Below are positions 1,913 through 2,537 of a DNA stretch of 4,595 bases, in pieces. Below the pieces are notes generated by a model that searched no databases, was not told the origin of the DNA, and saw nothing but the letters and a program-made list of their open reading frames with translations. The position numbers were made by a program, and so were the translations under genes. Origin of the DNA: a virus (taxonomy: Duplodnaviria > Heunggongvirae > Uroviricota > Caudoviricetes); the IMG/VR virus record IMGVR_UViG_2703718811_000012, positions 1 through 4,595 of that record. One strand, written 5' to 3'. How positions within the stretch are numbered: position 1 is the first letter of the stretch; each line of letters opens with the position of its first letter.

Positions 1913-2076
1913 GAGGACTTGCATACAATCCCGGCATTCTTCCGGCAGAAATGATTATTCGCCAACGCGTAAAGCCAATGCCATCGATAGAGGAATTGCT
2001 TAAGAGAAATTCTTTTCCGTCAGTGAATCAAAACAAATATCTGAATGCGATGTGGCACAAAGGAGGCAACCAGTGA
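1909..2076 (+). CDS. Hypothetical small protein, 55 aa ([55 protein letters not shown])
   Basis: Absent from the supplied ORF track (below its size cut-off). ATG at 1909 overlaps the upstream stop (ATGA) and has GGAG 8 nt upstream (1897-1900). Its TGA at 2074-2076 overlaps the GTG start of the next gene (GTGA) and its 3' end contains that gene's SD, AAGGAGG (2059-2065). Confidence 0.45.
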
Positions 2077-2537
2077 GCGAAATTAATTACCAGGCACTGC
2101 GTGAGGCGGCAGAGAAGGCAATGTATGACGACTGGGGATTTGACTCGGACCTTTTCCATGAGCTGGTAAAACCATCGATTGTGCTGGCACTGCTGGATGA
2201 ACGGGAAAGAAACCAGCAATACATCAAACGCCGCGACCAGGAGAACGAGGATATTGCGCTTACGGTTGGGAAGCTGCGTGTTGAGTTGGAAGCTGCAAAG
2301 AACAACCTTATTGATAGTGAATGCCATGTTACTGAACTGGAAGAAGCGCTACGTGATAAGCAAGCGTTACTTGAAACATCAGAGAAGCGCATAGCAATAC
2401 TGGAAACAATCAAATCCGCTGCGGAAAAACTGGTTCGCTGTAAAGGCCGCTATCACAGTGAGCAGAACTATCGTGCGCTGGCAGCATTGTTTGGCGTAAC
2501 AGTGCCAGATTTACTACCACTGGAGAACAATAAATGA
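2073..2537 (+). CDS. ea22: Ea22-like family protein: conserved N-terminal domain with a divergent coiled-coil C-terminus
   Basis: GTG start at 2073 is 7 nt after AAGGAGG (2059-2065); the longest-ORF start at 2052 lacks an SD. The N-terminus [73 protein letters not shown] matches, from memory, the N-terminus of phage lambda Ea22. The C-terminal ~80 aa is heptad-like and does not match the lambda Ea22 C-terminus as recalled. Confidence 0.75.

What the first reader, a model, noticed from the sequence alone, without database searches (positions are those of the whole stretch)
2073..2537. Mosaic Ea22-like protein: conserved N-terminal domain fused to a different coiled-coil C-terminus
Residues 1 to about 75 match the lambda Ea22 N-terminus as I recall it ([32 protein letters not shown]...[16 protein letters not shown]). 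The rest ([48 protein letters not shown]...) is a different heptad-rich segment. Conserved-head, variable-tail architecture is typical of modular phage proteins whose variable part sets target specificity, which would make this a distinct Ea22 variant.
Basis: partly seen in the sequence, partly recalled or inferred. Interest (0 to 1): 0.45.

Follow-up and report, generated by a model that had tools for sequence, protein, structure and literature searches.

The report
Short mosaic Ead/Ea22-family prophage gene
This is an intact but ordinary member of the well-known, heavily shuffled Ead/Ea22 family of early genes in lambda-like prophages of E. coli: it has the lambda-type start, but the rest is built from pieces shared with other prophages and it lacks the usual end domain.

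Summary
Window 2073-2537 (+) is a 154-aa ORF with a GTG start that overlaps the stop of the upstream DUF2737 gene. It is 69/76 identical to lambda Ea22 over residues 1-76. DNA homology to lambda stops at about nt 2299.

- The gene is a Pfam Ead_Ea22 member (E=3e-24).
- It lies in the recT-to-xis/int early-left operon of a lambdoid prophage integrated at yecE.
- The break with lambda falls inside one continuous predicted helix (residues 34-125), not between a head domain and a tail.
- The "different" part is two widely shared modules. One is the coil segment common in Shiga-toxin-phage Ea22 proteins. The other is a ~45-aa module ([29 protein letters not shown]) also found in P22 EaD.
- The ORF stops four codons after that module (ENNK*), so it has no variable globular C-terminal domain at all.

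An identical protein is already in NCBI as "ead/Ea22-like family protein" on at least 143 contigs. Ea22 mosaicism is published (Dydecka 2020; Goddard 2024).

It is probably functional. The ENNK end recurs with three head types and two coil types, and dN/dS is well below 1. By analogy it is a coiled-coil, pro-lysogenic modulator. Low interest.

The parts
2073..2537 (+). Complete ead/Ea22-family CDS, 154 aa, GTG start, TGA stop
   Evidence: ORF and sequence. Pfam PF13935 E=3e-24. Identical to NCBI protein P0001.
2073..2180 (+). Lambda-type head (aa 1-36: [36 protein letters not shown]). Two short predicted helices with lower confidence.
   Evidence: 86-95% nt identity to lambda and 95-100% to L009. 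Unrelated sequence in L007, L010 and P22. AF2 helices 6-16 and 27-31.
2181..2300 (+). Universal family core (aa 37-76: [40 protein letters not shown]). It is the start of the long helix, and both of its edges coincide with recombination junctions.
   Evidence: About 120 bp at about 90-93% nt identity in lambda, P22, HK140, the Stx1 phage and the prophage loci L007/L008 (sliding identity). Most invariant alignment columns lie here. dS 0.22 and dN 0.02 against lambda.
2301..2402 (+). Coil segment of the type common in Stx-phage and E. coli Ea22 proteins (aa 77-110: [32 protein letters not shown]). It replaces lambda's SKLNEQREYYEGVISDGSKRIA.
   Evidence: 100% nt identity to L007 and 86-95% to L010. 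Not alignable to lambda, P22 or L009. Present in most of the 120 listed homologues.
2403..2522 (+). EaD-type conserved module ("module D", aa 111-150: [42 protein letters not shown]). It covers the end of the long helix, a turn and a short helix.
   Evidence: 78% aa identity to P22 EaD with dS 1.17 and dN 0.19. 421 representatives in the 1.84-billion-protein library. Lies outside the Pfam match, which covers residues 2-111. AF2 helix 130-140.
2523..2537 (+). Four-codon tail ENNK plus stop. This is the 3' mosaic junction with the att-proximal module.
   Evidence: Homology of L010, L006 and P22 ends at 2522-2525. Homology of the downstream module starts at 2529 (L006) or 2534 (L003).
1909..2076 (+). 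Upstream DUF2737 gene, whose stop overlaps the ea22 start (GTGA)
   Evidence: Pfam PF10930 E=2e-29; sequence.
2534..2617 (+). Unannotated 27-aa hydrophobic ORF ([27 protein letters not shown]). Its ATG overlaps the ea22 stop (ATGA).
   Evidence: Length and both ends are conserved at 52-56% aa identity in L003 and L006.

Best explanation
It is an intact short-form gene of the Ead/Ea22 family, located in the early-left (pL) operon of a lambdoid prophage integrated at yecE.

Shown:
- The gene is a four-piece mosaic: a lambda-type head, the universal family core, the coil segment common in Stx-phage Ea22 proteins, and a P22-EaD-type terminal module. It ends four codons after that module and has no globular C-terminal domain.
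- The junctions lie at the edges of the ~120-bp core. That core is about 90-93% identical at DNA level in every relative examined.
- The EaD-module/ENNK 3' end always travels with the DUF4222-xis-int(yecE) module, while left arms differ (RecT, Erf or PAPS-reductase contexts).

Inferred:
- The allele arose by homologous recombination within the conserved core between two prophages. One resembled L009 or lambda on the left. The other resembled L007 on the right, which is 100% identical in every sliding window from 2194 to 2697.
- The protein is made early, translationally coupled to its neighbours.
- Its ~90-residue helix assembles into a parallel coiled-coil oligomer, a tetramer by analogy with lambda and P27 Ea22. 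This displays the small head at one end and the conserved EaD module at the other.
- Like lambda and Stx-phage Ea22, it biases the phage towards lysogeny through an unknown host or phage partner. With no C-terminal domain, the strongly conserved EaD module is the most likely contact surface.
For: Family membership and context:
- Pfam PF13935 at 86.5 bits.
- Gene order is recT, gp157, DUF5405, DUF2737, ea22, DUF4222, xis, int, then yecE (DUF72) and yecN. All are on one strand with overlapping stops and starts.
- There is no excess of promoter-like or terminator-like sites over shuffles.

Mosaic map:
- Lambda homology covers 2072-2299 only. L007 matches 2181-4590 and is 100% identical in every sliding window from 2194 to 2697. 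L010 matches 20-2522. L003 matches from 2534 onwards.

Intact and maintained:
- The identical protein is on 143 contigs, always in the same context.
- The ENNK end is combined with 3 head types and 2 coil types. Other short ends (QADD, DVRQ, EDDK, EGDA and others) exist.
- dN/dS is about 0.1-0.3 for the core, coil and module D.

Structure: helix 34-125 plus helix 130-140, mean pLDDT 84.5.

Function by analogy:
- Ea22 deletion favours lytic growth in lambda and Stx phages (PMC7093339).
- Full-length lambda and P27 Ea22 are tetramers. The lambda CTD alone does not reproduce the pro-lysogenic effect. The mosaic block structure is already described (PMC10834534, PMC8614690).
Against: - No function was tested here, and no partner of any Ea22 is known.
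- The characterised Ea22 proteins all have a C-terminal domain and end in R/K-G-E. This one has neither, so transfer of function is uncertain.
- NCBI's pipeline flags the identical gene in NZ_AP042495 as a pseudogene "missing C-terminus".
- 143 identical copies may reflect recent spread of one prophage rather than selection.
- The AlphaFold model is a monomer, so oligomeric state is not addressed.
Confidence: 0.8

Rival explanations
1. It is a decayed remnant: an Ea22 gene that lost its effector C-terminal domain by deletion and is non-functional, or at most an inert or dominant-negative coiled-coil stub.
For: - PGAP annotates the identical sequence as a pseudogene, "incomplete; missing C-terminus".
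- Close relatives with the same modules continue into a DUF551 domain (P0004, P0005).
- The family's usual terminal R/K-G-E motif (PMC7093339) is absent.
- Only 8 of the 148 best module-D proteins end within 8 residues of the module.
Against: - The ORF is uninterrupted and translationally coupled on both sides.
- The same ENNK end is found recombined with three different heads and two coil types (P0008, P0009/10, P0011, P0097/98). This requires it to have persisted through several recombination events.
- Several independent short ends exist (QADD with at least 5 head types, plus DVRQ, EDDK, EGDA).
- dN/dS in module D is well below 1.
- According to PMC10834534, the lambda CTD alone does not reproduce the pro-lysogenic effect.
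Confidence: 0.12
2. One reading: a conserved head carries a variable tail that sets target specificity, so this is a new specificity variant of Ea22.
For: - Family members do share the start and core and differ greatly downstream.
- The literature also speculates that differing C-terminal domains have different functional consequences (PMC7093339, PMC10834534).
Against: - The head is itself variable, with at least 8 types.
- The downstream part here is made of two of the most conserved and widespread modules, not a private sequence.
- The variable globular domain is missing.
- The identical protein is already catalogued.
- No target of any Ea22 is known.
Confidence: 0.05
3. The Ea22-like ORF and the overlapping 27-aa hydrophobic ORF form one unit. 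A -1 ribosomal slip at U-AAA-UGA would give ...ENNK-MSWPEAF..., a C-terminally membrane-anchored coiled-coil protein.
For: - The ATG of the small ORF overlaps the ea22 stop in the -1 frame.
- Two library proteins are exactly such in-frame fusions (P0122 ...PLESNKMSWPDAF..., P0123 ...PLENKKMSWPDAF...).
- The small ORF is conserved in length and at both ends across divergent copies.
Against: - The fused ORFs are rare: 3 contigs and 1 contig, all from automatic read-archive assemblies. They differ by the length of an A-run, so assembly error is possible.
- ATGA overlaps are the norm for translational coupling in this operon.
- The same small ORF also follows unrelated upstream genes (DUF551 protein in L006, a 178-aa protein in L003). 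It therefore belongs to the DUF4222-xis-int module, not to ea22.
- U-AAA-U is not a canonical slippery heptamer.
Confidence: 0.03

Closest known systems
Lambda Ea22 (NP_040612, 182 aa; exo-xis region; CTD NMR structure, PMC10834534)
   Same: - Residues 1-76 are 91% identical, and the DNA is 91% identical over 2072-2299.
- GTG start.
- Position in the pL operon upstream of xis and int.
- Long central helix.
   Different: - Lambda's coil segment (SKLNEQREYYEGVISDG) is replaced.
- Lambda's dimeric alpha/beta C-terminal domain and its terminal IKGE are absent.
- Lambda lacks the EaD-type module.
- No hit to any PDB sequence, including the lambda CTD entry.
Ea22 variants of Shiga-toxin phages and EHEC prophages (V1, V2 with DUF551, V3 of phage P27; PMC10834534)
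   Same: - Same core.
- Same coil segment [16 protein letters not shown] as the abundant 212-aa type, which I take to be V1 (P0045), and as the DUF551 type.
- Same mosaic logic.
   Different: - None of their C-terminal domains is present.
- No Stx-phage record in the phage collection contains the EaD-type module.
- P27 Ea22 (V3) aligns only over the head motif and core.
Salmonella phage P22 EaD (YP_063721, 197 aa)
   Same: Shares the core and the module [32 protein letters not shown] (78% aa identity over residues 111-150).
   Different: - P22 EaD has a different head.
- It has almost no coil segment between core and module.
- It continues for ~85 residues into a further coil and a domain ending GIKVKGE.
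Short E. coli prophage alleles ending ...PDL(L/P)PLENNK (P0003, P0008, P0009/P0010, P0011, P0097/98)
   Same: Same EaD-module/ENNK end and same downstream DUF4222-xis-int(yecE) module. P0003 is 96% identical overall.
   Different: They carry other heads (YKPHRG type, a Cys-rich type) or the lambda-type coil. This shows the pieces reassort.

Membership tests
Ead/Ea22-like family (Pfam PF13935) | Significant match to the family profile above the curated cut-off | tested here: met
   86.5 bits against a cut-off of 27, E=3.1e-24, residues 2-111 covering profile positions 1-139. PHROG families 250, 34708, 38306 and 368 also match.
Ead/Ea22-like family (Pfam PF13935) | Location in the early-left operon of a lambdoid/P22-like phage, between the recombination genes and xis/int | tested here: met
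   recT, gp157, DUF5405, DUF2737, ea22, DUF4222, xis, int, all on the + strand.
Ead/Ea22-like family (Pfam PF13935) | Central long alpha-helical / coiled-coil region | tested here: met
   AF2 helix 34-125 with pLDDT >90 over most of it. A constant heptad register holds over ~49-112, but the crude statistic is not significant.
Ead/Ea22-like family (Pfam PF13935) | Tetrameric full-length protein (shown for lambda and P27 Ea22) | not testable with these tools
   Only a monomer model could be made. Oligomeric state needs SEC-MALS or similar.
Ead/Ea22-like family (Pfam PF13935) | Pro-lysogenic effect on phage development | not testable with these tools
   Known only from deletion mutants of lambda and Stx phages (PMC7093339).
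Lambda-type Ea22 in the strict sense (three-part: head, coiled coil, globular CTD ending R/K-G-E) | Globular C-terminal domain | tested here: not met
   The ORF ends 4 residues after the EaD-type module. AF2 shows no structured region after residue 140. No PDB sequence match. No DUF551 or other domain hit.
Lambda-type Ea22 in the strict sense (three-part: head, coiled coil, globular CTD ending R/K-G-E) | Terminal R/K-G-E tripeptide (PMC7093339) | tested here: not met
   The protein ends ...PLENNK.
P22 EaD type | Module [30 protein letters not shown] following the core | tested here: met
   Residues 111-150 are 78% identical to P22 EaD, with dS 1.17 and dN 0.19.
P22 EaD type | C-terminal extension after the module (second coil plus a domain ending GIKVKGE) | tested here: not met
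   Absent. Compare the P22 EaD translation.

The most novel reading that the evidence does not exclude
The functional end of many of these proteins may not be the variable C-terminal domains that have been studied. It may instead be the ~45-residue module [32 protein letters not shown]. This module is about 80% conserved across at least 421 otherwise unrelated 50%-identity clusters of enterobacterial prophage coiled-coil proteins. Several of those clusters have no Pfam match, and the module is not covered by the Ead_Ea22 profile. On this reading, short forms like this one, which end right after the module, are the minimal active unit. They may work together with the translationally coupled 27-aa membrane peptide.
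Probability: 0.1. Interest if true: 0.4.

Novelty: new member of a known kind. Interest (0 to 1): 0.13.

Why it matters
It matters little on its own. The gene belongs to a named family. An identical protein is already in public databases under that name. The mosaic nature of Ea22 genes has been described for lambda and Shiga-toxin phages.

The modest added value has three parts:
1. A nucleotide-level junction map. It shows that the ~120-bp conserved core inside the gene acts as the crossover point joining different left arms to one integration module.
2. The observation that forms without a C-terminal domain recur, which argues against the automatic "pseudogene" call.
3. The recognition that the P22-EaD-type module is a separate, very conserved and widespread unit that current domain libraries do not model.

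If Ea22 proteins turn out to control Shiga-toxin prophage induction, such minimal natural variants would be convenient material for finding the active part.

Tried and rejected
- **PDB sequence search.** The only hits were designer PPR repeat proteins. These arise from a 27-residue low-scoring repeat match (per-stretch E >1000), which I judged spurious. The lambda Ea22 CTD did not hit, consistent with that domain being absent.
- **Foldseek of the AF2 model against PDB.** Nothing with E<=0.001, as expected for a single long helix.
- **NCBIfam and PADLOC scans of this and neighbouring proteins.** No hits, so there is no support for a known defence-system role.
- **Rfam.** No RNA family anywhere in the window.
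- **Promoter/terminator scan.** Counts were no higher than in shuffles, so there is no sign of an independent transcription unit.
- **My own heptad score.** The register is constant, but the maximum score was reached by 31 of 300 shuffles. I lean on the AF2 helix and the literature instead.
- **Tong et al. 2020 (PMC7271347), the Ea22 deletion and oligomer study.** It is not held in the library. Its results are cited only as reported in PMC10834534 and PMC8614690.
- **Frameshift fusion with the downstream membrane peptide.** Considered and largely rejected.
- **Search for the window's exact left end in complete E. coli genomes.** None carries the junction at window 1-19.

Full report
**What is at the coordinates**

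Window 2073-2537 on the + strand is a 154-codon ORF.
- Its GTG start overlaps the TGA stop of the upstream gene (ccaGTGAgcg), and an AGGAGG lies 8 nt upstream.
- Its TGA stop overlaps the ATG of a 27-codon ORF (aaATGAgc).
- NCBI's protein of identical sequence uses the same start (P0001).
- Lambda ea22 also starts with GTG (translation).

**Check of the observation**

I took lambda Ea22 from NC_001416.
- BLASTP gives E=7e-50. Residues 1-76 differ at seven positions. Beyond that only a weak gapped alignment runs to residue 112.
- At DNA level, lambda matches window 2072-2299 at 91.2% and nothing after. In 21-nt sliding windows, identity to lambda is 81-100% up to 2298 and 29-57% from 2299. The junction relative to lambda is therefore at codons 76/77.
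- Pfam places the protein in PF13935 Ead_Ea22 (86.5 bits, cut-off 27, E=3e-24).
- AlphaFold2 with a 27-sequence alignment gives mean pLDDT 84.5. It predicts short helices at 6-16 and 27-31, one continuous helix at 34-125, a turn, a helix at 130-140, and a disordered end.

**Surroundings**

All genes in the window are on the + strand:
- recT (its 5' end is missing);
- a Gp157/Gam-like gene;
- a 104-aa D5-like regulator-type protein;
- a DUF5405 gene and a DUF2737 gene;
- the Ea22-family gene;
- the 27-aa ORF;
- a DUF4222 gene and a 44-aa ORF;
- the excisionase (DUF1233) and a tyrosine integrase.

The window is 99.98% identical from position 20 onwards to a prophage in E. coli OkiPb01678. There the operon starts with N, cIII and kil, and int abuts yecE (DUF72) and yecN. 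This is the early-left operon of a lambdoid prophage integrated at yecE. Promoter-like and terminator-like sites are no more frequent than in shuffles. No Rfam family matches.

**The gene is a four-piece mosaic**

The map comes from BLASTN against lambda, P22, HK140, an Stx1 phage and seven prophage loci, plus sliding identity.

| Piece | Window nt | Residues | Matches | Does not match |
|---|---|---|---|---|
| Head | 2073-2180 | 1-36 | lambda 86-95%, L009 95-100% | L007, L010, P22 |
| Core | 2181-2300 | 37-76 | about 90-93% in lambda, P22, HK140, the Stx1 phage and L007/L008 | none |
| Coil segment | 2301-2402 | 77-110 | L007 100%, L010 86-95% | lambda, P22, L009, P27 |
| Module D | 2403-2522 | 111-150 | L007 and L009 90-100% per sliding window, L006 about 90%, P22 79% | lambda |
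| ENNK + stop | 2523-2537 | 151-154 | see below | |

- Homology of L010, L006 and P22 ends at 2522-2525.
- The next module starts at 2529 (L006) or 2534 (Stx1 phage).
- L007 is 100% identical to the window in every 21-nt sliding window from 2194 to 2697, but has an unrelated, Cys-rich head.
- L009 has nearly the same head as the window but the lambda-type coil.

The simplest history is a crossover inside the conserved core between an L009- or lambda-like left parent and an L007-like right parent. This is inference.

**The pieces reassort freely**

Of 5426 complete E. coli genomes, 2372 carry a match, with up to 8 copies in one genome.
- I classified the 120 listed relatives by motif (sequences; alignment). 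There are at least 8 head types, 2 main coil types plus short forms, module D present or absent, and many ends.
- The ends are DUF551 domains, several domains ending GIRIKGE (including lambda's own domain behind the Stx-type coil, P0080), or no domain at all.
- The ENNK end occurs with three head types (lambda type, YKPHRG type, Cys-rich type) and both coil types. A second short end, QADD, occurs with at least five head types. A third (DVRQ) also exists.
- In every ENNK locus I fetched, the gene is followed by the same 27-aa ORF, DUF4222, xis, int and yecE, while the left arm differs: RecT, Erf or a PAPS-reductase context.

So the 3' half of this gene travels with the integration module. The conserved core is where it is joined to different left arms.

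**Is it a live gene?**

NCBI's pipeline marks the identical sequence in OkiPb01678 as a pseudogene "missing C-terminus". The same sequence is an accepted NCBI protein on 143 contigs.

Arguments for a functional gene:
- The ORF is intact and translationally coupled on both sides.
- The ENNK end has persisted through several recombination events.
- Nei-Gojobori estimates show purifying selection:

| Segment | Compared with | dS | dN |
|---|---|---|---|
| Core | lambda | 0.22 | 0.02 |
| Coil | L010 | 0.50 | 0.09 |
| Module D | P22 | 1.17 | 0.19 |

Arguments against: the characterised family members all have a C-terminal domain, and only 8 of the 148 best module-D proteins end within 8 residues of the module. 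I put the remnant reading at about 0.12.

**Module D**

- Searching residues 105-154 alone against 1.84 billion cluster representatives gave 421 hits at E<=0.001, of which 343 are at E<=1e-10.
- The hits are about 80% identical over 43-48 residues and lie in proteins of 96-338 aa that otherwise differ.
- All 148 hits I inspected carry the RCKGRYH motif. Most lack the [15 protein letters not shown] core as I defined it.
- Of nine such proteins scanned, five have no Pfam match.
- For the window protein, the Pfam match stops at residue 111.
- In sequenced phages the module is found in 50 records: 31 Salmonella (including P22 EaD), 11 Klebsiella, and no Stx phage or lambda.

The window gene is therefore a hybrid of the Ea22 line (head, coil) and the EaD line (terminal module).

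**What is known**

- Dydecka et al. 2020 (PMC7093339) showed that ea22 deletion shifts lambda and Stx phages towards lytic growth. They also described the conserved start, the partly conserved coiled coil, the unique C-termini and a terminal R/K-G-E motif.
- Goddard et al. 2024 (PMC10834534) solved the lambda C-terminal domain. They state that the full-length lambda and P27 proteins are tetramers and that the C-terminal domain alone is inactive. They describe the "mosaic organization" with variants V1-V3. No partner is known.
- Donaldson et al. 2021 (PMC8614690) note that in 933W an insertion leaves the C-terminal domain in a separate gene.
- The P22 GenBank record L06296 already notes the DNA identity between eaD and lambda.

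Conserved core with variable ends is thus textbook for this family. What I did not find described in the Ea22 papers I read is this particular architecture: lambda head, Stx-type coil, EaD module, no C-terminal domain.

**Mechanism**

Shown: family membership, operon position, mosaic structure, long helix, purifying selection.

Inferred by analogy:
- early expression from pL;
- assembly through the ~90-residue helix into a parallel oligomer;
- a pro-lysogenic effect through an unidentified partner.

Because the variable domain is missing, the conserved EaD module is the most plausible contact surface.

**Verdict**

This is a real, correctly delimited and ordinary gene. It is a new member (a particular module combination) of a known, named and notoriously mosaic family, and it is already present under that name in public databases. 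Interest is low (0.13).

The most novel reading not excluded is that the EaD module is an unrecognised, widely shared functional unit and that short forms are its minimal carriers (probability about 0.1).

Noticed in passing
window 1-23: The first 19 bases (TCCAGGATTTCCGGGGCGG, then TTCA) do not belong to recT. Every BLAST match to related prophages starts at window 20, and the otherwise 99.98%-identical OkiPb01678 prophage has unrelated recT sequence there. The exact 19-mer occurs in 56 genome loci. In L032 (E. ruysiae) it is the outer end of a sequence that continues into an ORF starting MTKNTRFSP. From memory I recognise that as the orfA start of an IS3-family element (IS629/IS1203-like). 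So recT in the source genome is cut by an insertion sequence, or the contig breaks at one.
   Followed up: partly
window 2534-2617 (+): An unannotated 27-aa hydrophobic ORF ([27 protein letters not shown]) whose ATG overlaps the ea22 stop. Its length and both ends (M[SN]WP[ED]A....[CF]RWG) are kept at only 52-56% identity in an Stx1 phage (L003) and in strain RM10410 (L006). It always sits directly upstream of the DUF4222 gene, whatever gene precedes it. It is likely a real small membrane protein.
   Followed up: partly
P0122 and P0123 (library proteins); corresponds to window 2520-2617: Two proteins are in-frame fusions of an Ea22-like protein ending in the EaD module with the 27-aa membrane peptide (...PLESNKMSWPDAF......PLENKKMSWPDAF...). 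They are rare (3 contigs and 1 contig, all read-archive assemblies) and differ from the window by the length of an A-run. They may be assembly errors or rare natural fusions.
   Followed up: partly
L002 6049-6333 (= window 2121-2405): RefSeq (PGAP) annotates the identical intact ORF in NZ_AP042495 as a pseudogene "missing C-terminus", with coordinates that cover only part of the ORF. The same 154-aa sequence is an accepted NCBI protein elsewhere. This is an annotation inconsistency caused by longer reference proteins.
   Followed up: yes
window 2403-2522; proteins P0121-P0268: The EaD-type module ([35 protein letters not shown]) is about 80% conserved in at least 421 cluster representatives. 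Their other parts are unrelated to each other. Several have no Pfam hit at all. No current Pfam model covers the module.
   Followed up: partly
window 2868-3002 (+): A 44-aa ORF between the DUF4222 gene and xis is annotated as a hypothetical protein in related genomes and is present in all related loci fetched. It has no family match in NCBIfam or PADLOC; it was not scanned against Pfam or PHROGs.
   Followed up: no
window 4593-4595 and 874: The window ends exactly at the integrase stop codon. In related genomes int overlaps or abuts the yecE (DUF72) gene, which marks the attachment site. Apart from positions 1-19, the only difference from the OkiPb01678 prophage is one base, at 874.
   Followed up: no
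L003 769-1808 (Stx1a phage Stx1_14040): This Stx1 phage carries two adjacent genes that both begin with the Ea22-type start sequence (matches to window 2058-2112 at L003 770-808 and 1380-1434). Only the second contains the core. This agrees with published reports of several Ea22 variants in one genome.
   Followed up: no
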